Below, in pieces: positions 9,923 through 24,589 of a DNA stretch of 58,567 nt. Location: sequence record PZ445423.1. One strand, given 5' to 3'. How positions within the stretch are numbered: the first letter of the stretch is position 1; every line of letters begins with the position of its first letter. Origin of the DNA: a phage. The notes below the pieces were generated by a model that had not been told where the DNA came from, made no database searches, and saw nothing but the letters and a program-made list of their open reading frames with translations. Both the position numbers and the translations under genes were made by a program.

Positions 9923-12900
9923 TGGCCGAAACTGCTTCGCTAGTAATCAGGGTTGACGCGAAAGGGATTAGCACAGCGGACTCCATGCTGCGTAACCTTG
10001 CGCGTACAGGTGACACAGCGGAGCGTTCCGCTCAACGTGTCACATCCAGCTATAAAACATTGTCTAACACATCTAACGAACTTGCAACTGTCACAAGTCG
10101 TTTGGATGCTGCAATTGTAGGAATAATCAGCGTTGACACCATTGACCGTGTTATTTCGCTATCGGACTCCTGGACTATCCTCACCAATAAACTTGAACTG
10201 GCTCGTACGGGTAATGAAACCGTTGCGGATGCGCAGCAACGTGTATTTGATATTGCCCAGCGTTCGCGTACAAGCTTAGAAGCAACTGCAACTCTATACT
10301 CCCGCCTCCAGCGTGCAATGAAGAATACTGGTATGACAGGTATGGAGCTCGGGCGCATCACTGAAACAATCAACAAAGCAATGATCGTTTCTGGTGCAAC
10401 ATCCCACGAAGCAAGTGCTGCTCTTATTCAGTTTTCGCAAGCGATGGCATCCGGTGTTTTGCGCGGGGATGAATTCCGATCTGTTGCAGAACAAGCACCA
10501 CGCTTAACTCAAATCATGTCCGATGCATTAGGTGTTACCATTGGACAATTGCGTGAGCTGGCGTACAGCGGAAAGTTGAGCGCCGATGTGGTTATCAAAT
10601 CGTTGTCTGGTGCTGCGGATACAATTGATAAAGAATTTAGCCGCACTATGCCAACGTTCAACCAGCAATGGACGGTTGCAACAAACAACTTGACTAAGTT
10701 CATGGGCGAATCCCAAAAGACTCAAGGTGCGGTTGCTGCATTGGGGCAAACGTTTGTTGCATTATCCGAAAACTTAGGAACGGTTGTAACGGTTGGTTCA
10801 GCTTTAGCCACAGTGATTACCGCCCGTATCATTACGGCAATGCTTGCTAAGACTAAAGCGTCTATAGCTGCTGCAAAAGCATCTCAGATGGAAGCTGCAC
10901 AAACTGCGGCAACTACGGCAGTGATGCAAAGCTCTATTGGCGTTACCGCACAGAAAGCGGCTGCGGATCGTGCCGCTTCGCTTGCAGCGTTACAGGTTGC
11001 TCGCGGGTCATTAGCGGTTGCTAAGGGTACGGCAGCGGAAGCGGGCGCTCGTCTTGCGCTTATCAATGCCACCCGTGCTCACTCTGCGGCAATTATGGCG
11101 GACGTGCAAGCGCGGCAAGCGCTCAATGCTGCTCTTAATGCAACTGTACCAGCCGCAAGCCGGGCAGCTACAGCAATGAGCGTGCTGCGCGGTGCTATGG
11201 GGTTAATTGGTGGTCCTGTTGGTGTAGCAATGCTGGCAGCGGGTGCAATTTACTCCTATAAAGCGTCGCTGGAAGCAGGTCGTGCGGAAAACAATCAGTT
11301 TGCGGATAGTGTTGATTCTGTACGCGAGAAACTGATGCAGATGACAGAAGCTCAGCTGGCAGCTAACGCTGTCAAAGCTAGAGCAATCCTTCCTGAGCTT
11401 GAAGAGCAACTGAAGCGGGAGCAGAACGCTCTAAAATCTGCAACAGAAACACAGAAGTTCTATGAAGCACAATTAAAACGCCGTGCCGCGTCCGGTCGTG
11501 ATACAGCTAGTGCCGAGAAGAACTTACAAATTGCAACGGATAACGTCAAGCTTGCTGCCGAGCGTGCTGAAGAAGCTCAACGCCGTTACAACAATGTCTT
11601 AGAAATGACAAGCCCTGCTATCGAGAAGATAATTCCGTTAGCTCGTCAGCTTGCTGCTGATATGAAGGCCGTTCTTAACATCAAATCCGGTCCACTTATT
11701 GACGAGAAAGTCCTTGACCGTTTTAAAGGTCAGTTAGGTGACGTTAACCGTGAGATTGACGTTAACACTGTTAAGGGTGCTGGTAATGCTCGTCAAGCTG
11801 CAATCCTTAGCGGGCTGTATCAAACTCTAGGCAAGGATGCAGACACATACGGAAGTCTAATCCGAAAAGTGGCTATGGGGCAGGACGTTAGCTCAGAGGC
11901 AACAAATGAGTCCTCAAGACAGCTTGTTAAGTATGCTCAAGAGTTGGCGGAAGCTTACGGTAAGAACTACGATCTTGAAGAAGCTGAGCGCAACCGTACT
12001 AAAGCTACAAAAGATGCAATCAAAGCGGATAACCAGAACGCTAAAGTTGTCCAGGATCTACGCAATAAACTTGAAGAAGTAACCACAGGGGTTAAGGAAA
12101 ACGCCAAAGCAAAAGCGCAAGCGGTGGCACTTAATAAGCTCAATGCGTCTGCAACAGCTGCGGAAAAAGCAGAAGTCGTTAGTCTTGCCGCTGCAATCTA
12201 CGATGCAGAAGAAGCTCAAAAGAAACTGGACGAGCGTAAGAAGAATCGTAAGTTTGCTCAGGGTCTGTTAGATGAAGGTATGACGGACTATGAAAAAATC
12301 GCGTACGAGCAAAATACAAAGATTGCAGAGCTTAATGCAAAACAGCGAGCGGATGATTTAGCTTACTATCAGCTTTACGAAGATGCTAAAACCCAAGTGC
12401 TGAAAAAAGCAAGCATGGAAAGGGAAAACCTGGATAAAGTTCTTATGAACCGAATGATATCCTTTTCTCAGGAATCGTTGGGTATTATACTGTCAGGGCT
12501 GGAAGAAGGTGTTAGTAAACAGAACTTTATTTATAAGGCAATGTTTGCCGCACAGAAAGCAATGCAAATCCCATCAATCCTTGCTAACACGGAGACAGCG
12601 GCATCAGCGGCGCTTGCGTGGGGTACACAGCAAGGCGGTGCTACAATGGGCGCGGCTATGGCAGGAATTGTTAAAGCTATGGGATATGCGTCAGCCGCTA
12701 CTGTGGGTGGCTTAGCAATTGCTGGTATGGCTCACGACGGTATTGATAATGTTCCGCGTGAAGGTACATGGTTGCTGGATAAGGGTGAACGTGTACTCAA
12801 TGCTCCGTCTAATGACAAGTTAAATCGCTTCCTGGATAGTCAGGGTTCGCAACAAGGTGGCGTGAATATGTCAGGCGGTGTTACCATTATTCAGAATATT

Positions 12901-13038
12901 ACTGTACAAGGGAACGGCGATGTAGCGCTCAAGCAAGCAATGCAGCAAGCCGCTCGTGATGGTGCAGAGCAGGGATATAACAAGGTTCTTACAGACTTTG
13001 CTTCCCGAGGAACAATTCGTAGAACTGCAATGGGGTAA
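9922..13038 (+). CDS. tail tape measure protein
   Basis: 1038-aa largely alpha-helical, Ala/Gln-rich ORF after the chaperone pair, SD AAGGAG. Confidence 0.85.
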   Translation: MAETASLVIRVDAKGISTADSMLRNLARTGDTAERSAQRVTSSYKTLSNTSNELATVTSRLDAAIVGIISVDTIDRVISLSDSWTILTNKLELARTGNETVADAQQRVFDIAQRSRTSLEATATLYSRLQRAMKNTGMTGMELGRITETINKAMIVSGATSHEASAALIQFSQAMASGVLRGDEFRSVAEQAPRLTQIMSDALGVTIGQLRELAYSGKLSADVVIKSLSGAADTIDKEFSRTMPTFNQQWTVATNNLTKFMGESQKTQGAVAALGQTFVALSENLGTVVTVGSALATVITARIITAMLAKTKASIAAAKASQMEAAQTAATTAVMQSSIGVTAQKAAADRAASLAALQVARGSLAVAKGTAAEAGARLALINATRAHSAAIMADVQARQALNAALNATVPAASRAATAMSVLRGAMGLIGGPVGVAMLAAGAIYSYKASLEAGRAENNQFADSVDSVREKLMQMTEAQLAANAVKARAILPELEEQLKREQNALKSATETQKFYEAQLKRRAASGRDTASAEKNLQIATDNVKLAAERAEEAQRRYNNVLEMTSPAIEKIIPLARQLAADMKAVLNIKSGPLIDEKVLDRFKGQLGDVNREIDVNTVKGAGNARQAAILSGLYQTLGKDADTYGSLIRKVAMGQDVSSEATNESSRQLVKYAQELAEAYGKNYDLEEAERNRTKATKDAIKADNQNAKVVQDLRNKLEEVTTGVKENAKAKAQAVALNKLNASATAAEKAEVVSLAAAIYDAEEAQKKLDERKKNRKFAQGLLDEGMTDYEKIAYEQNTKIAELNAKQRADDLAYYQLYEDAKTQVLKKASMERENLDKVLMNRMISFSQESLGIILSGLEEGVSKQNFIYKAMFAAQKAMQIPSILANTETAASAALAWGTQQGGATMGAAMAGIVKAMGYASAATVGGLAIAGMAHDGIDNVPREGTWLLDKGERVLNAPSNDKLNRFLDSQGSQQGGVNMSGGVTIIQNITVQGNGDVALKQAMQQAARDGAEQGYNKVLTDFASRGTIRRTAMG

Positions 13039-13041
13039 CAT

Positions 13042-13626
13042 ATGCTTGACTGGCCTGAGGAACTTAGACCATCTTCGATGGAGTGGTATCTGGTATCTAA
13101 CTCCGTAGAATTCACTAGCCCCTTCAATGGGGCTACACAAACTGTCTCCTATCCTGGGTCCAGATGGGAGGCAACTTTATCTTTCGACAATTTAAACGAT
13201 TGGCAATCTAGAAAATTAGAATCCACTCTGGTTAAGCTGGATGGTAAATCTGGTCGCATCATGCTTCAAGATTTTGGACGTTGGGGTAGGCCGCCTATGG
13301 GAACTCCTGTGGTTAATGGTGCAAGCAACACAGGAACTACATTGGCGACTAAAGGTTGGACACCTAACAGAAAAGTCTTATGGGAAGGGGACTATATTAC
13401 CGTGAATGGTGAGTTAAAGATGGTCACTGAGGACGCATGGAGCGATGGTGCTGGTAACGTTATCTTAAATATCGCGCCAATGCTGAGAACTATTCCCCCC
13501 AATGGTGCTAAAGTTGAAACGCAGAAACCACAAGGCGCCTTTCGCTTATCTGACAATACCAACGGCGTTAAACGTCAACCAGCTTTCAACAACTCATTTA
13601 CTTTAAAGTTTTCGGAGGCTTTCTAA
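13042..13626 (+). CDS. minor tail protein (lambda M-like position)
   Basis: 194-aa ORF directly after the tape measure gene. Confidence 0.45.
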   Translation: MLDWPEELRPSSMEWYLVSNSVEFTSPFNGATQTVSYPGSRWEATLSFDNLNDWQSRKLESTLVKLDGKSGRIMLQDFGRWGRPPMGTPVVNGASNTGTTLATKGWTPNRKVLWEGDYITVNGELKMVTEDAWSDGAGNVILNIAPMLRTIPPNGAKVETQKPQGAFRLSDNTNGVKRQPAFNNSFTLKFSEAF

Positions 13627-14210
13627 TGCTGTTCAGCCCTTTTAGTGATAGTGTTTTAACTGCCATGGACCAACCGGATGTTAAGCTTGTCCTTGCTGCG
13701 GAAATACATTTCCCTTCTGGTATAACTAGAGTTCATACAGGGACCGGAGTTGTTGTTATTGACGGTCAAACGTTTCTTGGAGTTGGAACGTTAGGGGACG
13801 TTGGCTCGGTTACTGAAGAAAACAGCACAAGTTCAAGTACCATGTCCATGACCCTTAACGGACTTGATATGAGTCTTGTTGGGGAGACATTGAACGAAGA
13901 AGTAATCGGGTGCACAGTTATATGCTACATTGCGGTATTAAATAGTCAAGGTGTTGTAACTGGTGCTAACGTTCTCTTTGAAGGGTTTATTACAGATACT
14001 GCAATGCAAGCAGGTCAACAGAACGCATTAAGTTATGTTGTTGCTAACGTATTTGAAAAATGGTCGCAGGGTTTACCTGATCGCTATACAGATGAAAGTC
14101 AACAGCGGTTACATCCAGGAGATCGCTTTTTTAGATATGTTGCACAAATGGCAGAACGTTCAATCTTTTGGGGAAGTAAGAAAGATGCACCGGGATTCTA
14201 CTATGAATAA
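13626..14210 (+). CDS. minor tail protein (lambda L-like position)
   Basis: 194-aa ORF whose start overlaps the upstream stop. Confidence 0.45.
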   Translation: MLFSPFSDSVLTAMDQPDVKLVLAAEIHFPSGITRVHTGTGVVVIDGQTFLGVGTLGDVGSVTEENSTSSSTMSMTLNGLDMSLVGETLNEEVIGCTVICYIAVLNSQGVVTGANVLFEGFITDTAMQAGQQNALSYVVANVFEKWSQGLPDRYTDESQQRLHPGDRFFRYVAQMAERSIFWGSKKDAPGFYYE

Positions 14211-14619
14211 AACTGCTGGGTGGCAGACACGCCTATTAACCACAGTAAACGAGCTAAAGGAAGTCCCTTTTGTTTGGGGGCAAAATGATTGCTGTATATT
14301 TGTCGCTAAATGTTTAGACGCACAATACGGGACTAGTATTGCGGACGGGATAATTGGCCAGTACAGCACAGAGCTTGGAAGCAAGAGATTTATGCTGGAA
14401 AAAGCCAAGAGCACGTATTTGCCTACAATGTTGGATGTATACATTACGCAGCGTGTCGATAAGAAATATGCGCAGCGCGGAGATGTGGTTACATTTAATG
14501 GTGACTTAGGTTTAACCGCTGGCGTATTATGGTCGGGTGTTGTTTGGGCTATGGGTCCAAACGGTGTTGAAACTTTTCCATTAAGTAAGATTGAAATTAC
14601 CGACATTTGGAGGATGTAA
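14203..14619 (+). CDS. tail assembly protein, NlpC/P60-like (lambda K-like position)
   Basis: 138 aa from the ATG at 14203; VWGQNDCCIFV resembles an NlpC/P60 catalytic-Cys context; the track's longer ORF (14035) overlaps the upstream gene. Confidence 0.45.
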   Translation: MNKTAGWQTRLLTTVNELKEVPFVWGQNDCCIFVAKCLDAQYGTSIADGIIGQYSTELGSKRFMLEKAKSTYLPTMLDVYITQRVDKKYAQRGDVVTFNGDLGLTAGVLWSGVVWAMGPNGVETFPLSKIEITDIWRM

Positions 14620-17583
14620 ATGCCACCAGCAATAATTGGAGCAGCAATTGCACTAGGCGCGTCCGCTGCCGCGGCTGCTAGTATTATTTCCGTTACAACC
14701 GCTTTAGTGATAGGTATGGCTGCAACCGCAGCGGGTGCTTTGCTTACCAAAACACCTAAATTTGATTTCAACGCCTTTAAAGGTCAGCAAGAACGTAAAC
14801 AAGTTTTGCGGTCCGCTGCCTCTTCAAGAGTTGTTGTTTACGGTACAACGGTTTCATCCGGTCTATTATCCTTTGCAGAGGAACAAGCTGGTGATCAGGA
14901 TGATAAAGAAATTCTAAATATGGTGCTTGTCCTTGCATCCCATAGGCTAGAAGGGATAGGGCCAATATGGCTTGGTGACGATGCTATTGAAACTTTTGGG
15001 GATTTGGTATCGTGGGAGTTTCATAACGATCGTCAAACAGTTGACCCTTATATGTTGAATAATTGTCCTTCGTGGAAGGCGGACATGATTGGTAAAGGTT
15101 TAGCATGGCTAAGACTGACCTATAAGTTCGATGCGGAAAAGTTCCCTTCTGGTTTACCTAACGTTAAAGTTTTAAAGAAAGGTAGAAGGGTGTACGACCC
15201 GCGTTCAGGGGTAGAAGTCTTTAGCGATAATGCTGCTTTAGTGATATTGGATTATTTTCGTGTGTACTTAAATCGTAAAGACTCCAGTATAAACTGGGAT
15301 CAGTTTATTGAAGCTGCCAATATTTGTGATGAAATCATAAATAACGCAGATGGTACATCTGAACGCCGCTATCGCATTAATGGCGAGTTTGAGGTTGAAG
15401 AGGCCCCGTCTAAAATACTGGATGCGATGCTGGAAGCTTGCGGCGGTGAACTGACATATATTGGAGGTAAACACGGCTTGCTTGTTGGTGCTTATTACGG
15501 CCCTGCAACAATGACGTTGGACGAAAGTTGTATTGCTGGTGATATTAAAATAGTACCGGAGACATCATATAAAGACCGTACTAACACCATCACAGGTACA
15601 TTCATCGATCCTGAGCAAAACTATACAGAAGCGGACTTCCCCTCAGTTGTGGTTAAGGAATGGGTGGAGAAAGATGGAGGGGAAATTACGCAGGATATGG
15701 AATACCGCTTTGTTGTAAGTCCGTATCAAGCCCAGCGTCTTGCAAATATTATTTTACGTCGTAAACGTGTAGGTAGAACGCTTGAAATTCCTTGTAATAT
15801 GAAGGGGTATAAATTCCGCCCAGGCATGTACTTAAAAGTATCAATCCCACAGATTGGTATGCGCGATGTTGAAATGCGTGTAACTAAATGGTCTTTTGAT
15901 CCTAAAGGAGGTGTCAACCTTACATTACGTCAGGATTTCCTGGAAATGTGGGACGATGCTATTGGTAAGCCGATGGAGCGTCCGGATCTTGTCGATCTTC
16001 CTACTGGTGGGATCCCTCAACCGCAGAATTTGCAGTATCAGGTGTTGCAGATTAGCGACGTTGTACAAGGTGTATTAACGTGGAGCAATATAGGATCTTT
16101 TTCATATAACCGTGTTGCAATTAAGCAGAACGGACAAACAATATGGACAGCACAGGTTCCCGGGCAGAACGTGCGTGTAACGGGATTATTGCGCGGCGGG
16201 TATACTGCTCACGTGCAAGCTGTAGCCTATAGCGGTGCAGTATCACCAGAAGCATATCTGGAATTTAATATCCAAGCTCCGCCACCGCCGTCCAATGTAG
16301 AAGTACAAAACGGGTATTTTGCCATAACGTTAATCCCACGTATTAAGGATTTAACTAGTGTTAGTACGCAGTTTGACTTCTGGACATCCGGTGAAACAAG
16401 ATTACCGTCTTACGCTACTGAGATTGTCGAAGCTCAAGCAACAAGAAAGGGTATGGGTACAACGTGGACAGATCAAAACCTTAAGAATGACCACACTTAT
16501 TACTGGTATGTTCGTTCAATAAATGCATTTGGTTCGTCTGCGTTTGTGGAAGTTGCTGCGGTAGTTCATGCAGAAACAGGTCAGCTAATTGACTTTGTAG
16601 AGGACACGTTATCTCAAACAGAAGCATATAAAAACCTTGTCGCGTCTGTAAAAGAAGTTGAAGATGGCGTCACGTCTCTTGAGACCACTATAGAGGAAAA
16701 TGACACCAAATATACGGAGCAAATCAACTCAGTCCAGAGCAGTGTGGGTGATGTTAAAGTCACTGTGCAGGAACAAGCTTCCGCGTTCGCAGACCTAAAC
16801 GGCAAACTGTCCGCGCAATGGGGGCAAAAAGTTCAGGTTGACAATAATGGTAATAAATATGTTGCCGGTATGCAGATGGGCGTGGAAGGCCAAGGTGGGC
16901 AATATCAGTCTTACTGGATGGTAAGCGCGGACAACTTTGCGGTTTATAATCCAGTAGCAGGAGCTGCGAGCTTAGCGTTTGTTATTAAGAACGGTCAAGT
17001 TTTTATGAGAGAAGGTTTTATTGAAAACGGTTCAATTAATAACGCTAAGATAGGTAACGTTATCCAGTCTTATAACTGGAATGGTAATGATCAAGGTTGG
17101 GCAATAGTTAAAGACGGTTGGGCGACGTTCAACAACGTTACTGTCCGTGGTACTGTATATGCAACCAACGGTGAGTTTAGAGGAACCGTGTATGCAACTA
17201 ATGGTAAATTCACTGGAACTGTTGAAGCTCAAAGGTTTATTGGTGATATTGCAAACATGCACACTGGAACGAACGTTAGTCGAACGAATAACGGTGTACT
17301 GGAAAAGGTAATGACATACACAGATTCATCCTCCTCAAGGCACGCAAGACACGTCTGTGTTATAGCAAACGTGAGAGGGAATGGTGCAGGTACGATAAAT
17401 ATTAACGGATCTGAGGGCTCTTCCCGCGTACAGGATGTAGAACGACTTATTATGCATTCTGCTGTTGTAACTGGTCCAAAGGTTACGGTAAGAATTACAG
17501 TTTCCGCTCAGAACAATAGAGGGGCGTCTATAGCCTCGCCTACTATTATTGTTTCGCACGGATCCGGTTCATTCACAGGTTAA
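14620..17583 (+). CDS. tail tip / host specificity protein (J-like central fiber)
   Basis: 987-aa ORF at the end of the tail block with SD GGAGG, a hydrophobic Ala-rich N-terminus and a beta-rich C-terminal half. Confidence 0.65.
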   Translation: MPPAIIGAAIALGASAAAAASIISVTTALVIGMAATAAGALLTKTPKFDFNAFKGQQERKQVLRSAASSRVVVYGTTVSSGLLSFAEEQAGDQDDKEILNMVLVLASHRLEGIGPIWLGDDAIETFGDLVSWEFHNDRQTVDPYMLNNCPSWKADMIGKGLAWLRLTYKFDAEKFPSGLPNVKVLKKGRRVYDPRSGVEVFSDNAALVILDYFRVYLNRKDSSINWDQFIEAANICDEIINNADGTSERRYRINGEFEVEEAPSKILDAMLEACGGELTYIGGKHGLLVGAYYGPATMTLDESCIAGDIKIVPETSYKDRTNTITGTFIDPEQNYTEADFPSVVVKEWVEKDGGEITQDMEYRFVVSPYQAQRLANIILRRKRVGRTLEIPCNMKGYKFRPGMYLKVSIPQIGMRDVEMRVTKWSFDPKGGVNLTLRQDFLEMWDDAIGKPMERPDLVDLPTGGIPQPQNLQYQVLQISDVVQGVLTWSNIGSFSYNRVAIKQNGQTIWTAQVPGQNVRVTGLLRGGYTAHVQAVAYSGAVSPEAYLEFNIQAPPPPSNVEVQNGYFAITLIPRIKDLTSVSTQFDFWTSGETRLPSYATEIVEAQATRKGMGTTWTDQNLKNDHTYYWYVRSINAFGSSAFVEVAAVVHAETGQLIDFVEDTLSQTEAYKNLVASVKEVEDGVTSLETTIEENDTKYTEQINSVQSSVGDVKVTVQEQASAFADLNGKLSAQWGQKVQVDNNGNKYVAGMQMGVEGQGGQYQSYWMVSADNFAVYNPVAGAASLAFVIKNGQVFMREGFIENGSINNAKIGNVIQSYNWNGNDQGWAIVKDGWATFNNVTVRGTVYATNGEFRGTVYATNGKFTGTVEAQRFIGDIANMHTGTNVSRTNNGVLEKVMTYTDSSSSRHARHVCVIANVRGNGAGTININGSEGSSRVQDVERLIMHSAVVTGPKVTVRITVSAQNNRGASIASPTIIVSHGSGSFTG

Positions 17584-17587
17584 ACAA

Positions 17588-17615
17588 AACCCCCGCTAAT
17601 GCGGGGTAATTTTTA
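17588..17615. terminator. bidirectional rho-independent terminator between convergent genes
   Basis: CCCCGC-taat-GCGGGG hairpin flanked by A-run (5') and T-run (3'), between the J-like gene and the - strand lipoprotein gene. Confidence 0.7.
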
Positions 17616-17846
17616 GTAATCTATAACACAGTTGGAAGGACTACCAATTCGTCGGTACTCGTGATCAATCTCATGGCACCATTGCCCGGTCATTGGAAGT
17701 TTTTCGGTATCGTAGATTAAAGAACCGTTACCGTCACGGTCTAAAGGTTTTGGAATAACACCGGAATTAGGCTTTCCTGTGTCCAAACCAGTACCGCAAG
17801 CAGATAACAGAAATGTTAATGTCAAAATTGCAATAGAACGTTTCAT
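17613..17846 (-). CDS. small outer-membrane lipoprotein, candidate receptor-blocking superinfection exclusion protein (Cor/Llp-like)
   Basis: Start at the ATG with SD AAAGGAG; signal peptide MKRSIAILTLTFLLSACG with lipobox LSAC; opposite strand, wedged between tail tip and fiber genes. Confidence 0.55.
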   Translation of the reverse strand: MKRSIAILTLTFLLSACGTGLDTGKPNSGVIPKPLDRDGNGSLIYDTEKLPMTGQWCHEIDHEYRRIGSPSNCVIDY

Positions 17847-17929
17847 CGGGACTCCTTTTAGGTTGTTGTCAAGGTTCAAGTTTAATATACTTGTTAGGTT
17901 GAGTAAGTCAATTAAATGTGGGAGAAATT

Positions 17930-19681
17930 ATGGCTACGCGCTTGCACGGTATCTTGCTGGATGGTTTGAATAAGCCAATTATTAACGCTACAGTTGCTTT
18001 GATAGCAAAAGGGAACACGATCACCGTATTGAACGGAAGCGAGGCAATATTCCGCACTGACGGATCCGGTGCGTATAATGTAACCGTACAAACAGGCCAT
18101 TATAAGGTGATCATTGGTCCGCAGGGTATTGAGCCTTATAAAGCGGGTGAAATTGTTATTTATGGTGATAGTCCTGAAGGTTCGCTCAACGGCTATTTAA
18201 TTAACTGGGCTCCGGAAGAGTTGACACCGGATGTTATTAAACAAGTCCAGCAACTTGTGGCTAACTCTGAGGAATACGCGTTACAAGCTGGTCGCTCTGC
18301 TGCGGCAGCTAAAAACGACGCAGACCGCGCAAAGACGGAAGCAGACCGTGCGGAATCTGCTGCTAACAATGCACCAGAAATCCAACCATTACCAGATGTG
18401 TGGATACCCTTTAATAATTCACTGGATATGATCACCGGATTCTCGCCGTCATACAAAAAGATTGTCATAGGTGATGATGAGATCACAATGCTAGGTGACA
18501 AGATTGTTAAGTTTAAACGCGCATCAGCCGCTACTTACATTAATAAGTCTGGCGTGTTCACAATTGCTGAAATCGATGAACCAAGATTTGAACGTGAAGG
18601 TTTATTGATTGAGGGCCAGAGAACTAACCTGCTAATCAATTCAACCAATCCGACTAAATGGAACAAGTCGTCAAATATGATCTTAGATAGATCAGGTGTA
18701 GATGATCTCGGATTTCAGTACGCAAAATTTACATTAAAACCAGAAATGGTAGGGCAAACTTCAGCGATTAACATAGTGACCGTTTCCGGCAGTAAAGGTT
18801 TTGATGTAACAGGAAATGAAAAGTATGTAACCATATCATGCAGGGCGCAAAGTGGGACTCCAAATTTAAGATGCCGATTACGATTTGAAAACTACGATGG
18901 TTCTGCTTATACATTTTTGGGTGATGCTTACCTAAATATGACAGATCTATCGATTGAAAAAACTGGCGGCGCTGCAAATCGTATTACTGCAAGGGCTGTT
19001 AAAGATAAAGCAAGCAAATGGATTTTCTTTGAGGCAACAATTAAAGCACTTGATACAGAAAATATGATCGGTGCAATGGTGCAGTATGCACCAGCAAAAG
19101 GGGGAGGTACTGGTGCAGATGATTATATTTATATTGCGACCCCTCAAGTTGAAGGCGGGGCATGTGCTTCATCCTTTATTATTACAGAAGCAACTCCAGT
19201 GACAAGGGCTAGTGATATGGTTACAATGCCAATCAAAAACAATATTTATAGCTTACCTTTCACAATACTGTGTGAGGTACATAAGAACTGGTATAAAACA
19301 CCAAACGCAGCACCTCGAGTTTTTGATACTGGCGGCCACCAAACTGGGGCGGCAATGATCCTTGGCTTTGGTTCTTCAACGGATTATGACGGATTCCCTT
19401 ATTGTGATATAGGTGGTTCAAACCGACGCGTTAATGAAAACGCTTCTCTTGAAAAAATGGTTATGGGGATGCGTGTAAAAGCAGATCAATTGACATGTGC
19501 AATAAGTAACGGACGTATATCCAGCGAAACAAAAACAACCTGGACTTACATTCAAAGCTCCGCAACTATTCGTATCGGTGGTCAGACAACGACAGGACAA
19601 GGTCATTTATTTGGCCATGTCAGAAATTTTCGAGTATGGCATAAAGCATTGACTGACCGTGAATTGAAGGAGTCTGTATGA
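17930..19681 (+). CDS. tail fiber / receptor-binding protein (putative)
   Basis: About 583 aa from the ATG at 17930 (SD GGGAGA); beta-rich N-terminus, Ala-rich coiled-coil segment, large C-terminal domain. Confidence 0.5.
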   Translation: MATRLHGILLDGLNKPIINATVALIAKGNTITVLNGSEAIFRTDGSGAYNVTVQTGHYKVIIGPQGIEPYKAGEIVIYGDSPEGSLNGYLINWAPEELTPDVIKQVQQLVANSEEYALQAGRSAAAAKNDADRAKTEADRAESAANNAPEIQPLPDVWIPFNNSLDMITGFSPSYKKIVIGDDEITMLGDKIVKFKRASAATYINKSGVFTIAEIDEPRFEREGLLIEGQRTNLLINSTNPTKWNKSSNMILDRSGVDDLGFQYAKFTLKPEMVGQTSAINIVTVSGSKGFDVTGNEKYVTISCRAQSGTPNLRCRLRFENYDGSAYTFLGDAYLNMTDLSIEKTGGAANRITARAVKDKASKWIFFEATIKALDTENMIGAMVQYAPAKGGGTGADDYIYIATPQVEGGACASSFIITEATPVTRASDMVTMPIKNNIYSLPFTILCEVHKNWYKTPNAAPRVFDTGGHQTGAAMILGFGSSTDYDGFPYCDIGGSNRRVNENASLEKMVMGMRVKADQLTCAISNGRISSETKTTWTYIQSSATIRIGGQTTTGQGHLFGHVRNFRVWHKALTDRELKESV

Positions 19682-19956
19682 AAGATATTATTTTAACATT
19701 TAAAGATAAGCAAGAATACCAAAATTTCTTGATTGGGATAAATTGGCAGGATAATGAGGAGCTTCAGGATAAGATCCTTCTGGACGAAATTGGTTACACC
19801 TATACAAACATATCCGGAAGTGAAGACGAAGAACCAGAATCAATTCGAAACGATGGTTACTTTGTTAATGTTCGTATCTTGAACTTTGACTTCAACCAGC
19901 AGATATTTGATGGATATGTGGTTACATTAGATCGACCTTTAAGAGAATGGGCGTAA
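19678..19956 (+). CDS. hypothetical protein, possible fiber assembly factor
   Basis: 92-aa ORF overlapping the upstream stop (ATGA) and lying between two fiber genes. Confidence 0.4.
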   Translation: MKDIILTFKDKQEYQNFLIGINWQDNEELQDKILLDEIGYTYTNISGSEDEEPESIRNDGYFVNVRILNFDFNQQIFDGYVVTLDRPLREWA

Positions 19957-19965
19957 GGAGCGTTT

Positions 19966-21498
19966 ATGGTAACTAAGACTATTATACCAACTGATATAAC
20001 CAAACTTAAATCTGATGTTGAAGCGATAAACGGAGAAGTATCAACATTAACGGAGGATACCTCCACGTTAAAGTCCGATGTGGGAACTCTAAAATCTGAC
20101 GTTGGCAACTTGAAAACACGAGAAATTGTGAATACAGATTGGACAGCGCAGCGACCACAGAATCAGCAGAACGATTCGTCTAGCAACTTCGGAACAGGCT
20201 ATAAATTAATCTCTCAAGGTATAGATATTGATGGAAAAACATATGCTGCGTCACTGGAAATGGTGCGGGTTAGATCTGACGGAATCATAAACGCGCGTAT
20301 TAATGTTGTTAACGCTGCTGGTGACTCAATATATTACGATTTTAATGATAATGGTGAAATTGTAGTTCCACCGAAACAAAATATTAGCTCAAGACGTTTT
20401 CGTATTGCAAATGATGGCACATCGTCAATGGATGGTCGGTTGAACATGTGGGGTGCTAGTACGCGCGCCGATGTTTTTGAATACGGCTGGAGTAGCGGTT
20501 ACGGCTTTTATATGCAGCGCAATACCGATAACTCAAGAGAGTTTCATGTAAATGGAACTATTACAGCAAATAACGTAAGTTCGGGATCCGACCGAGACTT
20601 GAAAACCGATATCGAAACTATCGCGAATGCTACCGAAAAACTGCGTAAGATATATGGATACACATATACACTTAAGTCCGACGGAATGCCTTACGCTGGT
20701 GTGATTGCACAAGAGGTTATGGAAGCGTTGCCAGAAGCGGTTGGTGGGATGACAGTTTACACTGAAGAAGATAAGGAAATAGGGACGCGTTACCTTACTG
20801 TTAACTATTCTGGTATTGTTGGTTTGCTTGTTCAGGTATGTCGTGAAGCTGGTGCGGCTGGTATCGGTGGCGCGATCGGTGGCTTAATTGGTTCCTGGAT
20901 CGGTAATGGTTGGGGTGGCAATGGTGGCTGGGGTGGTCGCGGTAACTTCGCTGGTCCGGTGGAAGTGCAAGCTTCTGTTGACACCAACGCAATTCTGCAA
21001 GCTATCAACAACGGTACTCTTCAGACCATTCAGGGTCAGAACGGTACTAACCTGACTGTTGAGCGCTCCGCTGCTTCTACCTATAACGGTATTACTCAGC
21101 AGAACACTCAAAACCTGCTGGCTTCCGTTCAGGGTTTTGCTGGTCTGAACACACAGATCCAGGGCGGCACCAGCCAAGTGCTCGCGGCTCTGTGTAACAA
21201 CGAAGCAGCTAACATTACCCGTTCCTTCCAGGCGCAGCTAGAAGCTCAGAAGTGTTGCTGCGAAACCAACCTGAACATCGAGCGTCAAGCAGAAGCTACT
21301 CGTGCGCTCCTGCGCGATCAGCACGCACAAGCGCAAGCTGTTCTGATCTGTGACCTGAAGTCCCAGTTGCAGGAAGCTCGCTTTGCAAACTCTCAGTTGG
21401 CGCAGACGGCTGGTCTTACCTGTAAGATCAATCAGGTTGAGCAGTTAGTTAACTTTAAACTGCCAACTCCTCCGACTCCTCCGACTAGCTGCTGCTAA
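19966..21498 (+). CDS. tail fiber with S74-type intramolecular chaperone domain and long low-complexity C-terminal extension
   Basis: SD AAGGAG; N-terminal LKSDVGTLKSDVGNLK repeats; GSDRDLKTDIETI...AGVIAQEVMEALPEAV matches the S74 autoproteolytic chaperone signature; ~220 more residues follow. Confidence 0.7.
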   Translation: MVTKTIIPTDITKLKSDVEAINGEVSTLTEDTSTLKSDVGTLKSDVGNLKTREIVNTDWTAQRPQNQQNDSSSNFGTGYKLISQGIDIDGKTYAASLEMVRVRSDGIINARINVVNAAGDSIYYDFNDNGEIVVPPKQNISSRRFRIANDGTSSMDGRLNMWGASTRADVFEYGWSSGYGFYMQRNTDNSREFHVNGTITANNVSSGSDRDLKTDIETIANATEKLRKIYGYTYTLKSDGMPYAGVIAQEVMEALPEAVGGMTVYTEEDKEIGTRYLTVNYSGIVGLLVQVCREAGAAGIGGAIGGLIGSWIGNGWGGNGGWGGRGNFAGPVEVQASVDTNAILQAINNGTLQTIQGQNGTNLTVERSAASTYNGITQQNTQNLLASVQGFAGLNTQIQGGTSQVLAALCNNEAANITRSFQAQLEAQKCCCETNLNIERQAEATRALLRDQHAQAQAVLICDLKSQLQEARFANSQLAQTAGLTCKINQVEQLVNFKLPTPPTPPTSCC

Positions 21499-21520
21499 TC
21501 GTTGAAGTGTGGTTAAACTA

Positions 21521-21556
21521 AAGCGCCTTTCGCTCCTCCGCTTGGGGCGCTTTTAA
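21521..21556 (+). terminator. candidate terminator/stem-loop after the fiber gene
   Basis: AGCGCC...GGCGCT stem with a 19-nt loop, followed by TTTTAAC. Confidence 0.35.
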
Positions 21557-21569
21557 CAGAGGTACTATC

Positions 21570-21938
21570 ATGAGCCACATTAAAATCGCAACGATGGGAA
21601 TGCCACGGGTCAAATTGCCTAAGGTTGCTTTACCTCGCATTAGCGTAGGTGAGCACAACCATGAACATGAGAAAGAGGAATATAAACATGCTCACTCTTA
21701 TGCTCGAGATCATGAACATATGGCAGCTATGTCAAATGTTCTTGACCGGATGGAAGAACCTCCGCATACGTGGGCGGCGTACCACGACAAGCCCGGCGGT
21801 ATGATGTCCATTGTTGAAATGGAATACCGCGAATTAATGGAGTGTAAGAAAGAAGGCGACCGCGCAGGGATCATGAAAGAGTTGACTGATCTTGCCGCAG
21901 CTTGTACTTGCGCTCTTCAAAAAATGAAAGATATGTAA
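21570..21938 (+). CDS. hypothetical His/Glu-rich protein (possibly MazG-like NTP pyrophosphatase)
   Basis: 122 aa, SD AGAGGT; EMEYRELMECKKEGD...LTDLAAA loosely resembles MazG-type EExxE helices. Confidence 0.35.
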   Translation: MSHIKIATMGMPRVKLPKVALPRISVGEHNHEHEKEEYKHAHSYARDHEHMAAMSNVLDRMEEPPHTWAAYHDKPGGMMSIVEMEYRELMECKKEGDRAGIMKELTDLAAACTCALQKMKDM

Positions 21939-21953
21939 GAATAGGAAGCCGAC

Positions 21954-22484
21954 ATGCAAAACGTAAACGCAGGAATGGGCGTAACCCAGTTCAACGGGAT
22001 GAAACCGAAAAACTCCATCAACATGGGCGGTGTTGATTGGACGTTACGTCGGGACGCTACCGATTCAACTACCATGTTCCCACACCAGAAGGTGAGCTGG
22101 CTTAATGCTGGATGTGAACCTATGGGTGATGGAAGGGTTCATTACTGTTGGATTATGGGAGTGATACCGCCTACGCCGGGCACTATCGAACGACCCGTGA
22201 ATGTGATGTATGTCGGCTTCCACCAGTTCAAGATTACAATTGCTCCAAACTCCATTAGTCAATCAGATCTTGATCGTATGCATGTTTACGTCAGCGATGG
22301 CACAGACTTCGCAGGGGATTTTATTAGTAAGTTTCTTGGTATGCAACCAGAGCAGCCTGTAGAAGCACGCGAGCATATTAGCCCGTGGCCACCCATGATT
22401 GATCAGGAAGTGCTGCAACCAAAGACCGCTCAAACGGTCCCTCAGAAACCGGAGCAGAAGGTGAAACCAAATGACGAAGAATGA
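21954..22484 (+). CDS. hypothetical protein
   Basis: 176-aa ORF with SD AGGAAG and a Pro/Gln-rich C-terminus. Confidence 0.4.
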   Translation: MQNVNAGMGVTQFNGMKPKNSINMGGVDWTLRRDATDSTTMFPHQKVSWLNAGCEPMGDGRVHYCWIMGVIPPTPGTIERPVNVMYVGFHQFKITIAPNSISQSDLDRMHVYVSDGTDFAGDFISKFLGMQPEQPVEAREHISPWPPMIDQEVLQPKTAQTVPQKPEQKVKPNDEE

Positions 22485-22755
22485 AGGTATTGATAAAGTC
22501 GTTGAAGGGCTTTCTATTCGTGCTCATGTTATAGCAGACGAAGGTCATGATCAACTTACAATTATGAAATCTGCATTCAGCGATTTTAAGTCTCTTGGAA
22601 ACTTAAGCGGGTTAATGACTGTGGTGTCGACCGGAAAATTAACCCAGCAGCAAATCAGTCTAGCTCAGCGTATTGCTGTTAAAGTTATTGCGGTACTTGG
22701 GATGATTGAAGCTGAAAAGCCCAGTTCCAAGCAGGATAACGAAAGCGACCTTTAA
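22471..22755 (+). CDS. hypothetical protein
   Basis: 94-aa ORF overlapping the upstream gene end. Confidence 0.4.
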   Translation: MTKNEGIDKVVEGLSIRAHVIADEGHDQLTIMKSAFSDFKSLGNLSGLMTVVSTGKLTQQQISLAQRIAVKVIAVLGMIEAEKPSSKQDNESDL

Positions 22756-22766
22756 GGAGGTCTACT

Positions 22767-22970
22767 ATGTGTGGTAATACTAACCGTTGCTGTCTAGGCA
22801 GTCCTGCAACACAAGTAGGTATACTTCAGGGGCAATTGGCTCAAGCAGCGTGTAATTGCAAAACTTTTCAACCAGTAGCGCCAACTCCTGTGTTTGTGAA
22901 TGCTTTTGCACCGCCTGTTTTCAATACTTTTGGCGTATACCCATACGGTGCTTTCTTTCGTATATTCTAA
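22767..22970 (+). CDS. hypothetical small Cys-rich protein
   Basis: 67 aa with 5 Cys near the N-terminus; strong SD AAGGAGG. Confidence 0.3.
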   Translation: MCGNTNRCCLGSPATQVGILQGQLAQAACNCKTFQPVAPTPVFVNAFAPPVFNTFGVYPYGAFFRIF

Positions 22971-22974
22971 GAAG

Positions 22975-23002
22975 AGAAAAAGGGGCAAACGCCTCTTTCT
23001 TT
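22975..23002. terminator. convergent-junction hairpin (candidate bidirectional terminator)
   Basis: AAAGGGGC-aaac-GCCTCTTT stem-loop between the last + strand structural ORF and the first - strand ORF. Confidence 0.4.
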
Positions 23003-23282
23003 AACGCTTATGAAAAGCTGACAGGATTGCAAGTGTTACAGCACCCAATCCAACGACGGTAGCATAAGTGAGTTGGTGTTGAACTTTAACAAAGCCATAA
23101 TAGGTGCTAGGGATGTCTACAATCCCAAACGCCATAGCAAAGCTGGTCCCAAGTAGTGCTACAGCAAGGGCGCGTAATAACGCCCTGCTCATTGCTGTAA
23201 AGCCCTTCTCATTACTATCTCCGGTCATTATAACAACAATGATTAGAAATAGCGAAACGACAACTAATAGATATTCCATCAT
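23001..23282 (-). CDS. small membrane protein
   Basis: 93 aa with three hydrophobic helices; start overlaps the upstream stop (ATGA). Confidence 0.4.
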   Translation of the reverse strand: MMEYLLVVVSLFLIIVVIMTGDSNEKGFTAMSRALLRALAVALLGTSFAMAFGIVDIPSTYYGFVKVQHQLTYATVVGLGAVTLAILSAFHKR

Positions 23283-23485
23283 TTGCGTCTCCTGTACATG
23301 TATTGATCATACGCGGTCGCAATAATAGTGACTGGCCAGCAAGCGAGTATACATAGAAGACTTACAATCTTCTCCCAACGTTTCTTATGGGATAGCGCAT
23401 AATTATAGTTATTCCAACAAAAGAAATAAGTCATTGCTGCAATAACTACACCAATTACAAAATACATAACCACATATTCATGCAT
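23279..23485 (-). CDS. small membrane protein
   Basis: 68 aa with two hydrophobic helices and a basic C-terminus (YRRRK). Confidence 0.4.
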   Translation of the reverse strand: MHEYVVMYFVIGVVIAAMTYFFCWNNYNYALSHKKRWEKIVSLLCILACWPVTIIATAYDQYMYRRRK

Positions 23486-23666
23486 CGGTAAACTCCCAAA
23501 TCAGATTATAATTATTTCCCGCTGGTACATAGCGCCCTGGACGTGGATCGAAGCTTTTCACTGAAAACTCCAGCGTTCCGGCGCTATATAGTTGCACCTT
23601 TTGTCCGTCCCACGGTCCACCTATCAATTTAAAAGTCTGTCGATAACCTTTTGCAGCTTTAGCCAT
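23478..23666 (-). CDS. hypothetical protein
   Basis: 62-aa ORF with SD AAGGAG. Confidence 0.35.
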   Translation of the reverse strand: MAKAAKGYRQTFKLIGGPWDGQKVQLYSAGTLEFSVKSFDPRPGRYVPAGNNYNLIWEFTDA

Positions 23667-23680
23667 GCTCGCTCCTTAAA

Positions 23681-23710
23681 TACCCGCGCGAACGCGGGTA
23701 TTATTTTATT
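23681..23710. terminator. GC-rich hairpin with flanking T-run
   Basis: TACCCGCG-cgaa-CGCGGGTA followed on + by TTATTTTATT; lies between two - strand ORFs, so orientation is ambiguous. Confidence 0.35.
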
Positions 23711-23915
23711 ACGCTTCCGGTGTTTCCGGTGATGGTTCATCAGGAACAACAATAACATCGGCTAAAACTTTCAACGCTTCTTGTTGCTCCGCTGTCATAT
23801 TATTCCAGTAATAGACGTGAATGTAAACTACTGGTTTGTCACCATGTTGCCACGGTTCGCGACTTACTACATCCGCAGCTAAATCGCTTGCTACGCTCTT
23901 TTCTTTACCAGCCAT
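23709..23915 (-). CDS. hypothetical acidic protein
   Basis: 68-aa ORF. Confidence 0.35.
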   Translation of the reverse strand: MAGKEKSVASDLAADVVSREPWQHGDKPVVYIHVYYWNNMTAEQQEALKVLADVIVVPDEPSPETPEA

Positions 23916-23947
23916 GCTAATGTACCCCTTTAAGGTTTTACACGCGG

Positions 23948-24241
23948 CTAACCCCCAAAAGTACCCATATGATCAAGGGTTCTAATGCGCTGCTCCAGCC
24001 AACGTGCGTTCTTTTCAAAATGTTTATTGGTACGCGCTGCTTTGCACGCATCAATAATACCTAACTCACATCCAAGCTGCGTTTGTCCCATCACGTAAGA
24101 ATTGGTTAACATGCTGGATACAAGCTCTTCACATTGTAACTTAATAGGATGGTCTTGGCATAGTTTCTTTGCTGCATCTTTTAAATCCACAGCTTGGACA
24201 CCAGGCGCTATCAGCAAAGTTACGAGTAATAAACGTTTCAT
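23948..24241 (-). CDS. secreted/periplasmic small Cys-containing protein
   Basis: 97 aa; signal peptide MKRLLLVTLLIAPGVQA then a mature domain with 4 Cys. Confidence 0.45.
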   Translation of the reverse strand: MKRLLLVTLLIAPGVQAVDLKDAAKKLCQDHPIKLQCEELVSSMLTNSYVMGQTQLGCELGIIDACKAARTNKHFEKNARWLEQRIRTLDHMGTFGG

Positions 24242-24525: not shown

Positions 24526-24550
24526 TTTGTATCCCCTCTTGTTGTATGCA

Positions 24551-24579: not shown

Positions 24580-24589
24580 CAAGTAGAAT

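What the first reader, a model, noticed from the sequence alone, without database searches (positions are those of the whole stretch)
17613..17846. Opposite-strand lipoprotein gene between the tail tip and fiber genes: candidate receptor-blocking superinfection exclusion factor
A 78-aa protein with a clear lipoprotein signal (LSAC lipobox) is encoded on the - strand within the + strand tail module, flanked by a bidirectional terminator. This placement mirrors T5 llp and the cor genes of phi80/T1-like phages, whose lipoproteins inactivate the phage's own outer-membrane receptor.
Basis: partly seen in the sequence, partly recalled or inferred. Interest (0 to 1): 0.65.

Follow-up and report, generated by a model that had tools for sequence, protein, structure and literature searches.

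The report
LamB-directed phage exclusion lipoprotein gene
This is a real small lipoprotein gene sitting against the grain next to the phage's receptor-binding tail-tip gene, and it belongs to a family already shown to make E. coli resistant to phages that use the LamB porin. It is a correct call but not a new one.

Summary
Window 17613..17846 (- strand) encodes a 77-aa prelipoprotein (MKR, hydrophobic core, LSAC lipobox, Cys17). It has its own sigma-70-like promoter and shares a bidirectional terminator with the convergent J tail-tip gene.

- The protein belongs to PHROG 12984 and is 51-55% identical to Lpp010 (mEp010 gp116). That protein excluded LamB-dependent phages, including lambda, when expressed from a plasmid (PMC11893012).
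- The window matches BASEL phage KurtStettler (Bas22) in length (58,567 bp) and GC content. Bas22 is an experimentally LamB-dependent Seuratvirus.
- Among the BASEL small siphoviruses checked (10 of 12), every LamB user carries this gene. No LptD or FhuA user in that set does.
- The mature protein is 97% identical between phages whose J receptor-binding ends are only about 41% identical. It therefore tracks the receptor, not the J allele.
- It is not a homologue of T5 Llp or T1 Cor. Only the signal peptides align.
- A separate spanin pair in the lysis cassette rules out a spanin role.

The candidate role was already published for the Bas23 orthologue (PMC9586334). What remains open is how a lipoprotein disables a porin that lacks TonB-type allostery.

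The parts
17613..17846 (-). CDS of the 77-aa prelipoprotein, stop codon included
   Evidence: Translation. PHROG 12984 'lipoprotein' at E = 1.3e-48 over the full length. dN/dS 0.07-0.10.
17799..17846 (-). Signal peptide, residues 1-16 (MKRSIAILTLTFLLSA). The lipobox is LSA|C and the acylated Cys17 codon is at 17796..17798.
   Evidence: Read directly from the sequence. Matches a PS51257-like rule. Cys17 is invariant in the family.
17616..17798 (-). Mature 61-aa lipoprotein. It starts Cys-Gly, so there is no Asp at +2, which predicts sorting to the outer membrane. It has a Gly/Pro-rich tether, the conserved PNSGV and DTEKLPMTGQWC motifs, and two near-invariant Cys residues (57 and 73).
   Evidence: Alignments. 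The mature part is 97% identical to the WildeMaa and CAjan proteins.
17852..17856 (-). Ribosome-binding site AGGAG, 5 nt upstream of the ATG
   Evidence: Read from the sequence. Conserved in Queuovirinae loci.
17884..17911 (-). Sigma-70-like promoter TTGACT-16-TATATT for the lipoprotein gene. It lies in the 83-nt divergent spacer before the tail fibre gene.
   Evidence: Consensus scan, 10 of 12 matches. Both hexamers are conserved in Dru_SM1, CAjan and WildeMaa.
17591..17606 (.). Bidirectional intrinsic terminator hairpin shared by J and the lipoprotein gene
   Evidence: Eight other loci keep a hairpin at the same place with different stem sequences, and the gap to the convergent J-like ORF is 28-34 nt in 29 IMG/VR loci.
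14620..17583 (+). J-like tail-tip protein (987 aa). Its C-terminal ~227 aa (16900..17583) is the putative LamB-binding end, of the HK97 type.
   Evidence: Pfam hits. The C-terminal 227 aa are 74% identical to HK97 J, 76% to 9g and 66% to mEp010. The last 400 nt are 91% identical to HK97 J.
17930..19681 (+). Lateral tail fibre gene downstream. It is context only and not part of the exclusion module.
   Evidence: Pfam phage_tail_N at E = 6e-23.

Best explanation
The gene encodes a small outer-membrane lipoprotein that makes the infected cell, and its debris after lysis, refractory to phages that use the maltoporin LamB. LamB is this phage's own terminal receptor.

Proposed sequence of events:
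- Host RNA polymerase transcribes the gene from its own promoter, against the direction of the late tail operon.
- The precursor is exported, lipidated at Cys17 and cleaved by signal peptidase II.
- Residue +2 is Gly, so the Lol pathway delivers it to the outer membrane.
- The conserved, probably disulfide-stapled C-terminal domain (about 50 aa) then acts on LamB so that J-type tail tips can no longer start a productive infection.
- This protects the infected cell from superinfection and spares progeny from wasting themselves on LamB in debris. That is 'lytic conversion', as described for T5 Llp.

What is shown:
- The ORF, the lipobox and purifying selection.
- Fixed synteny with J.
- Co-occurrence with LamB use in every phage checked.
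- Exclusion of LamB-dependent phages by a homologue that is 51-55% identical.

What is inferred:
- Outer-membrane location.
- Direct binding to LamB, and from which face.
- Whether adsorption or DNA entry is blocked.
- Timing of expression.
For: 1. Family membership. PHROG 12984 at E = 1e-48. 51-55% full-length identity to mEp010 gp116 (the figure depends on the aligner) and 73% over residues 26-77.

2. The homologue was tested. Lpp010 expressed from a plasmid excluded mEp010, mEp044, mEp554 and lambda. All four mEp carrier phages fail on a lamB knockout (PMC11893012).

3. The window matches phage KurtStettler/Bas22. It is 58,567 bp with GC 0.4465, the length and GC given for Bas22. The lamB dependence of Bas22 was complemented (PMC8594841 S5 Table and S10 Fig).

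4. Receptor correlation in BASEL small siphoviruses. Bas21, Bas23 and Bas24 (LamB) carry the gene. Bas14, 18, 19, 20 and 25 (LptD) and Bas15 (FhuA) gave no hit. In Bas25 the same slot holds an unrelated 321-aa gene.

5. The mature protein is 97% identical between the window and WildeMaa or CAjan, while the last 227 aa of J are only about 41% identical. The lipoprotein follows the receptor, not the J allele.

6. Synteny. The gene lies convergent and directly after J in Seuratvirus, Nonagvirus, Dhillonvirus, a Drexlerviridae phage and the mEpimmI group. The same holds in 29 of 31 IMG/VR loci.

7. It has its own promoter, ribosome-binding site and terminator.

8. The literature already proposes this role for the Bas23 orthologue (PMC9586334).
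Against: - No member of the Queuovirinae branch has been tested.
- The tested homologue is only about 51-55% identical. It was assayed by spot tests, not adsorption assays, so the blocked step is unknown.
- Lpp010 did not exclude the LamB-dependent phage mEp013, so the effect is not a simple loss of LamB.
- LamB has no known allosteric plug mechanism like FhuA, so the Llp model cannot be transferred directly (PMC9586334).
- The AlphaFold model is poor (mean pLDDT 62) and gives no structural clue.
- E. coli Nissle 1917 carries a copy differing at 3 of 61 mature residues by my count, yet lambda is reported to bind its LamB and be inactivated (PMC5987069). If that copy is expressed, adsorption is not blocked there.
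- The identification of the window as Bas22 rests on matching length and GC, not on a sequence comparison.
Confidence: 0.8

Rival explanations
1. It is an entry blocker acting after adsorption. The lipoprotein leaves LamB able to bind phage but prevents tail-tip opening, tape-measure insertion or DNA passage through the periplasm. This would resemble the Gram-positive lipoprotein Ltp or HK97 gp15 in outcome.
For: - Only efficiency of plating was measured for Lpp010, not adsorption.
- Nissle 1917 carries a near-identical copy (3 of 61 mature residues differ by my count). [quoted passage not shown]
- A variant with a signal-peptidase-I type signal (AFA|N) and no lipobox would be a soluble periplasmic protein. 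That fits action inside the periplasm.
Against: - The gene co-varies with LamB use across phage groups that are taxonomically far apart.
- Lpp010 also excludes lambda.
- These points fit a host-side, receptor-level target more easily than a phage-side one.
- Expression of the Nissle copy is unknown, and Nissle has other resistance factors.
Confidence: 0.13
2. It is a true Llp/Cor family member that inactivates a TonB-dependent transporter such as FhuA or BtuB. This is the literal reading of the first reader's analogy.
For: - Similar size: 77 aa against 77 (Llp) and 75 (Cor).
- All three have a lipobox and two Cys in the mature part.
- All three lie next to the receptor-binding gene.
Against: - Profile comparison aligns only the signal peptides: 20-21 columns, nothing in the mature domains.
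- A family profile search of all PDB sequences gave no significant hit (best E = 0.45). PDB should include the published FhuA-Llp complex.
- By my count, the mature Cys pair is 16 residues apart here, against 47 in Llp and 48 in Cor.
- Carrier phages with known receptors all use LamB.
Confidence: 0.02
3. It is an outer-membrane lipoprotein with another job: an o-spanin (Rz1-like) for lysis, or a Bor-like moron giving the host a fitness trait.
For: - Small outer-membrane lipoproteins in phages are often o-spanins.
- The mature N-terminus is rich in Gly and Pro.
- Copies occur in prophages of 33 of 5,426 complete E. coli genomes.
Against: - The window has a complete lysis cassette elsewhere. It holds an endolysin ORF within 56304..57011, a holin at 57048..57392, an i-spanin-like ORF at 57373..57849 and an overlapping o-spanin-like ORF at 57707..58012 (Dru_SM1 annotation).
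- No Pfam, NCBIfam or PADLOC family beyond the lipid-attachment signal matched.
- The homologue has a demonstrated exclusion phenotype.
Confidence: 0.03

Closest known systems
Lpp010 (mEp010 gp116), the 'type-C' exclusion lipoprotein of mEpimmI temperate coliphages (Negrete-Mendez et al. 2025, PMC11893012)
   Same: - Homologous over the full length: 51-55% identity, 73% over residues 26-77.
- Same lipobox Cys, the same PNSGV and DTEKLPxTGQWC motifs, and the same Cys pair.
- Same position, convergent right after J and sharing a terminator.
- The carrier phages use LamB.
   Different: - The tether after the lipid anchor is longer and different (AVDKEAALHNL against GTGLDTG).
- It comes from a temperate phage, so it acts as prophage-encoded exclusion. 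The window is from a virulent Seuratvirus, where the role would be lytic conversion.
- The window's protein itself is untested.
T5 Llp, the lytic conversion lipoprotein (structure with FhuA: van den Berg et al. 2022, PMC9586334)
   Same: - Same size (77-aa precursor) and an identical LSAC lipobox.
- Encoded next to the receptor-binding protein gene with its own promoter.
- Same expected biological role: inactivating the phage's own receptor.
   Different: - No detectable homology in the mature domain.
- Llp targets FhuA, a TonB-dependent transporter.
- In the FhuA-Llp structure the extracellular loops EL7 and EL8 fold inward.
- LamB has no known allostery, so the mechanism here must differ.
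Cor of T1, phi80 and N15 (FhuA-directed exclusion lipoprotein)
   Same: - Small lipoprotein.
- Encoded on the opposite strand downstream of the J/receptor-binding locus, behind a terminator.
   Different: - Only the signal peptide aligns.
- Cor targets FhuA.
- In T1, two extra genes lie between J and cor. Here the lipoprotein directly follows J.
Rz1-type o-spanins
   Same: Small phage-encoded outer-membrane lipoproteins.
   Different: - Spanins lie in the lysis cassette, paired with an i-spanin.
- The window has such a pair at 57373..58012.
- This gene lies in the tail module.

Membership tests
Type-C Lpp / PHROG 12984 (exclusion lipoproteins of LamB-dependent phages) | Full-length sequence homology to the tested member Lpp010 and to the PHROG profile | tested here: met
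   PHROG 12984 at E = 1.3e-48, positions 1-77 of 77. The tblastn hit falls on mEp010_116. 51-55% identity, depending on the aligner.
Type-C Lpp / PHROG 12984 (exclusion lipoproteins of LamB-dependent phages) | Lipoprotein signal peptide with a lipobox Cys | tested here: met
   LSA|C with Cys17, invariant in 27 sequences. PS51257-like rule met. SignalP and LipoP were not available.
Type-C Lpp / PHROG 12984 (exclusion lipoproteins of LamB-dependent phages) | Encoded convergently, immediately downstream of the J tail-tip gene | tested here: met
   Window. Nine annotated phage loci. 29 of 31 IMG/VR loci, with a 28-34 nt gap.
Type-C Lpp / PHROG 12984 (exclusion lipoproteins of LamB-dependent phages) | The carrier phage uses LamB as terminal receptor | tested here: met
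   - The window matches Bas22 (LamB) in length and GC.
- Bas21, 23 and 24 carry the gene and use LamB.
- The LptD and FhuA users checked gave no hit.
- The J end is 74% identical to that of HK97, which adsorbs to LamB.
- This rests on literature receptor data plus inferred identity of the window.
Type-C Lpp / PHROG 12984 (exclusion lipoproteins of LamB-dependent phages) | Expression in trans excludes LamB-dependent phages | not testable with these tools
   Shown only for Lpp010 (PMC11893012). It needs a wet-lab test for this protein.
Llp/Cor family (FhuA-inactivating lipoproteins) | Sequence similarity of the mature domain | tested here: not met
   hhalign aligns only 20-21 signal-peptide columns. 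A profile search of PDB gave no significant hit.
Llp/Cor family (FhuA-inactivating lipoproteins) | Small outer-membrane lipoprotein with one intramolecular disulfide | tested here: inconclusive
   Two near-invariant mature Cys residues, 57 and 73. By my count they are 16 residues apart, against 47 in Llp and 48 in Cor. The disulfide itself was not verified.
Llp/Cor family (FhuA-inactivating lipoproteins) | Target is FhuA, or another TonB-dependent transporter | tested here: not met
   All carrier phages with known receptors use LamB. Lpp010 excludes lambda.
Llp/Cor family (FhuA-inactivating lipoproteins) | Separately transcribed gene next to the receptor-binding gene | tested here: met
   T1 cor and T5 llp layouts compared with the window.
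o-spanin (Rz1-like) | Located in the lysis cassette, embedded in, overlapping or next to an i-spanin gene | tested here: not met
   This gene lies in the tail module. A separate i-spanin/o-spanin-like pair lies at 57373..57849 and 57707..58012, after the holin.
Bor/Lom-type prophage outer-membrane morons | Match to the corresponding Pfam families | tested here: not met
   The only Pfam hit is LPAM_1, below threshold.

The most novel reading that the evidence does not exclude
The family may be a structurally new class of receptor-silencing lipoprotein, unrelated to Llp/Cor. It would disable a classical trimeric porin (LamB) by a mechanism other than TonB-box-style allostery. It might plug or clamp the periplasmic mouth of the channel, or allow phage binding while blocking tail-tip triggering. 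The escape of mEp013, the lambda-binding but uninfectable Nissle 1917, and a lipid-free periplasmic variant would all fit a selective mechanism acting from the periplasmic side.
Probability: 0.4. Interest if true: 0.55.

Novelty: already known. Interest (0 to 1): 0.25.

Why it matters
For genome annotation, the 'hypothetical protein' or 'lipoprotein' between J and the lateral fibre gene in Seuratvirus, Nonagvirus and Dhillonvirus phages can be labelled a putative LamB-directed exclusion lipoprotein. The same applies to mEpimmI-type prophages. Its presence is a useful predictor that the phage uses LamB.

For biology, the remaining question is one van den Berg et al. raised in 2022. How does a small lipoprotein neutralise a receptor that has no known allostery? 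This family is compact and highly conserved, and it is carried by well-characterised BASEL phages. That makes it a convenient system for answering the question.

For phage therapy and phage cocktails, prophage copies could pre-empt LamB-dependent phages. One such copy is in the probiotic Nissle 1917.

Tried and rejected
- **Homology to Llp/Cor.** I fetched T5 llp and T1 cor and ran profile-sequence comparisons. Only the signal peptides align. Rejected as family membership and kept as functional analogy.
- **Solved-structure relatives.** A family profile search against all PDB sequences gave nothing below E = 0.45.
- **Structure prediction.** AlphaFold2 with a 24-sequence alignment gave mean pLDDT 62 and pTM 0.36. 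Foldseek against PDB gave only noise, all E > 5. No structural inference was drawn, and I did not spend the second prediction job.
- **Curated family libraries.** Pfam, NCBIfam and PADLOC matched nothing beyond the lipid-attachment signal.
- **Exhaustive profile search of 1.84 billion representative proteins.**
  - It found only 4 clusters.
  - One was a 4,467-aa repeat protein that matched a short Asp/Gly/Thr-rich motif nine times. I regard that hit as compositional.
  - The family is therefore narrow and no deeper link was found.
- **Spanin hypothesis.** Rejected after locating the lysis cassette.
- **Chance occurrence of the lipobox.** The pattern alone is not significant in this window. 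The case rests on conservation and selection.
- **SignalP/LipoP.** These were not available, so only rule-based checks were done.

Full report
**1. What is there**

Window 17613..17846 on the - strand is an ATG-initiated ORF of 77 codons plus a stop.

The N-terminus is a textbook bacterial lipoprotein signal.
- MKR, then an 11-residue hydrophobic stretch, then L-S-A-C with Cys at position 17.
- The residue after the Cys is Gly. By the established Lol-avoidance rule (Asp at +2 retains a lipoprotein in the inner membrane) this predicts delivery to the outer membrane.

The gene has its own expression signals.
- An AGGAG ribosome-binding site lies 5 nt before the ATG.
- A promoter-like site, TTGACT-16-TATATT, lies at 17911..17884 on the - strand.
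- The stop codon faces the stop of the + strand gene 14620..17583 across a 29-nt spacer.
- That spacer holds a perfect 6-bp GC hairpin (17591..17606) with U-runs in both directions.

The upstream + strand gene is a lambda-J-like tail-tip protein, with Pfam Phage_Tail_Tip at 8e-41 and Ig_J_second at 6e-34. The downstream + strand gene, 17930..19681, is a lateral tail fibre.

**2. Is it more than chance?**

A lipobox-type pattern alone is not significant here.
- A PS51257-like rule applied to every possible start codon gave 7 matches in the window.
- Shuffles gave about 3.5 on average.
- The other six matches are starts inside four longer ORFs.

The gene is real because it is conserved and under selection.
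- 28 database clusters and 43 phage records contain a homologue.
- Cys17 is invariant. The motifs PNSGV and DTEKLPMTGQWC and two further Cys residues (57 and 73) are invariant or nearly so.
- dN/dS against 9g, CAjan and WildeMaa is 0.07-0.10, with synonymous sites near saturation.
- The promoter hexamers are conserved among Seuratvirus relatives.
- Every related locus keeps a hairpin at the same place, with different stem sequences (CCCCGC/GCGGGG, CCCCTC/GAGGGG, GGCTCCC/GGGAGCC).

**3. Where the window comes from**

- The nearest GenBank phage at this locus is the Seuratvirus Dru_SM1, at 91% identity.
- The window is 58,567 bp with GC 0.4465.
- The BASEL S5 table lists Escherichia phage KurtStettler (Bas22, MZ501091, Seuratvirus) at exactly 58,567 bp and GC 0.447.
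- That record does not appear among the hits, although its sister phages do.
- I conclude, by inference rather than by alignment, that the window is Bas22.
- Bas22 depends on LamB as terminal receptor, and the lamB mutant phenotype was complemented (PMC8594841).

**4. What the protein is**

- It matches PHROG 12984 ('lipoprotein') end to end at E = 1e-48.
- Nothing else in Pfam, NCBIfam or PADLOC matches beyond the lipid-attachment signal.
- The family is small. An exhaustive profile search of 1.84 billion representative proteins found only four clusters. One of those is a compositional hit to a giant repeat protein.
- Members occur in Seuratvirus and Nonagvirus (83-94% identical), in Dhillonvirus (65-69%) and in a Drexlerviridae phage of Enterobacter (about 60%).
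- They also occur in the temperate mEpimmI phages mEp010, 013, 044 and 554, at 51-55% over the full length and 73% over residues 26-77.
- The hit in mEp010 is gene mEp010_116.

That gene, gp116 or 'Lpp010', has been tested. Negrete-Mendez et al. 2025 cloned it and showed that its expression excludes mEp010, mEp044, mEp554 and phage lambda. All four mEp carrier phages fail on a lamB knockout (PMC11893012). An experimentally characterised homologue therefore exists, and its specificity is for LamB-dependent phages.

**5. The gene tracks the receptor**

Receptor use was checked for 10 of the 12 BASEL small siphoviruses outside Drexlerviridae.
- Bas21, 23 and 24 use LamB and carry the gene. Bas22 is the window.
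- Bas14, 18, 19, 20 and 25 use LptD, and Bas15 uses FhuA. None gave a hit.
- In the LptD user VogelGryff the same slot between J and the fibre gene holds an unrelated 321-aa opposite-strand gene with no lipobox.

The comparison with the J protein is more telling.
- The mature lipoprotein is 97% identical between the window and WildeMaa or CAjan.
- The last 227 residues of their J proteins are only about 41% identical.
- The window's J end is of the HK97 type: 74% amino-acid identity, and 91% nucleotide identity over the last 400 nt.
- HK97 adsorbs to LamB (PMC6832061).
- So very different J ends that all serve LamB come with the same lipoprotein.
- This is what is expected if the lipoprotein acts on the receptor rather than on a particular tail tip.

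Synteny is rigid.
- In 29 of 31 IMG/VR loci a long convergent ORF ends 28-34 nt after the lipoprotein stop.
- The C-terminus of that ORF is homologous to the window's J.

**6. Relation to Llp and Cor**

- T1 cor lies on the opposite strand, behind a terminator, after J and two further genes.
- T5 llp lies divergently next to the receptor-binding gene oad.
- The sizes are alike: 77, 75 and 77 aa.

There is no homology.
- Profile comparisons align only the signal peptides.
- A profile search of all PDB sequences found nothing.
- By my count, the two mature Cys residues are 16 residues apart here, against 47 in Llp and 48 in Cor.

The protein is therefore a functional analogue with an independent origin.

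This matters for mechanism. In the FhuA-Llp structure the extracellular loops EL7 and EL8 fold inward, which accounts for the loss of phage binding. The same authors point out that LamB has no known allostery, so how its putative exclusion lipoproteins work is unknown. In that passage they already name LamB-targeting phages 'e.g., Bas23' as likely to have such lipoproteins (PMC9586334). The Bas23 protein is the 97%-identical orthologue of the one in this window.

**7. Most likely mechanism, and what is uncertain**

Best-supported model (confidence about 0.8 for the phenotype):
- The gene is transcribed by host RNA polymerase independently of the tail operon.
- The lipoprotein is anchored in the outer membrane.
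- Its conserved Cys-stapled C-terminal domain neutralises LamB as a phage entry point.
- This protects the infected cell and keeps progeny from being lost on debris.

The sub-claim of direct LamB binding that blocks adsorption is weaker, about even odds, for three reasons.
- Only plating was measured for Lpp010.
- Lpp010 failed against the LamB-dependent phage mEp013. LamB is therefore altered selectively, not removed.
- E. coli Nissle 1917 carries a prophage copy differing at 3 of 61 mature residues by my count. Yet lambda is reported to bind Nissle LamB and be inactivated without infecting. The authors infer an unidentified factor blocking DNA entry (PMC5987069).

A variant of the family has a signal-peptidase-I type signal and no lipobox, and it lies away from any J gene. 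It would be a soluble periplasmic protein. If it is functional, that argues for action from the periplasmic side. These points keep a post-adsorption entry block alive as the main rival, at about 0.13.

**8. Rivals rejected**

- **Spanin.** The window has its own lysis cassette at 56.3-58.0 kb. It holds an endolysin ORF, a holin at 57048..57392, an i-spanin-like ORF at 57373..57849 and an overlapping lipoprotein ORF at 57707..58012 (MPTSKLILMSVFLMICAGCSTEIQPPPQ...).
- **Bor/Lom-type moron.** There are no family matches.
- **FhuA- or BtuB-directed Llp/Cor member.** Homology and receptor data are both against it.
- **Non-coding artefact.** Excluded by dN/dS and conservation.

**9. Structure**

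AlphaFold2 with the 24-sequence family alignment gave a low-confidence model, with mean pLDDT 62 and pTM 0.36. Foldseek against PDB returned only noise. I draw no structural conclusion. The protein may fold only on its target.

**10. Verdict**

It can be made more specific: the target is LamB, and the protein belongs to the type-C Lpp / PHROG 12984 family, not to Llp/Cor.

It is not new.
- The locus logic was described for the BASEL phages (PMC8594841).
- The candidate role was stated for the Bas23 orthologue (PMC9586334).
- A family member was tested in 2025 (PMC11893012).

The residual interest lies in the unsolved mechanism on a receptor that is not a TonB-dependent transporter.

Noticed in passing
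whole window (1..58567): The window's length (58,567 bp) and GC content (0.4465) match those listed for Escherichia phage KurtStettler (Bas22, MZ501091, Seuratvirus) in the BASEL S5 table. That record does not appear among the phage-collection hits, although its sister phages do.
   Followed up: partly
window 56304..58012: Lysis cassette: an endolysin ORF within 56304..57011, a holin at 57048..57392 and an i-spanin-like ORF at 57373..57849. An overlapping out-of-frame o-spanin-like lipoprotein ORF lies at 57707..58012 with an atypical lipobox (ICAG|C) and a Pro-rich start.
   Followed up: partly
window 17194..17593: The last 400 nt of the J gene are 91% identical to lambdoid phage HK97 J. The similarity stops at about the J stop codon (window 17583), just before the terminator hairpin (17591..17606). 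The rest of J resembles Seuratvirus relatives, so this looks like a recombination mosaic that swapped the receptor-binding end and kept the lipoprotein.
   Followed up: partly
L042:2501-2719 and L043 (IMG/VR contigs): A family variant (MKKLIAVVAILLCTNAFA|NTNEPNSGV...) has a signal-peptidase-I type cleavage site instead of a lipobox. It is not next to a J gene and sits among small unknown ORFs. It would be a soluble periplasmic version of the domain.
   Followed up: partly
L044:2922-3155 (E. coli Nissle 1917 chromosome, locus HW372_RS10405): 33 of 5,426 complete E. coli genomes, including the Nissle 1917 assemblies listed, carry the J-end plus lipoprotein module at about 79% DNA identity. The Nissle protein differs from the window's mature protein at 3 of 61 residues by my count. 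Nissle is reported to resist lambda through a still unidentified entry-blocking factor (PMC5987069), and this gene was not considered there.
   Followed up: partly
L012:3411-4376 (phage VogelGryff, Bas25): In this LptD-dependent Seuratvirus the slot between J and the lateral fibre gene holds a 321-aa opposite-strand gene with no signal peptide, instead of the 77-aa lipoprotein. J is also shorter (about 879 aa). The gene might be a separate receptor-binding protein.
   Followed up: no
P0024 and L041:2501-2730: These are frameshifted copies...LPMTGSGVTRLITNTDESVALLTVL replaces the conserved C-terminus. P0024 is recorded on 29 contigs, including E. coli chromosomes, which suggests decay of the gene in some prophages.
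   Followed up: no
L025:1037-1267: A mosaic family member. Its signal peptide and tether are like the window's protein, but its C-terminal 25 residues are of the mEp type (...LPYTGQWCHELDHNMRRIGSPSNCVANY). This indicates recombination inside the gene.
   Followed up: no
window 19678..21498: Downstream of the first lateral fibre gene lie a 92-aa ORF and a 510-aa protein. The larger protein has a Peptidase_S74 (intramolecular chaperone) domain, typical of a second, self-cleaving fibre or spike component.
   Followed up: no
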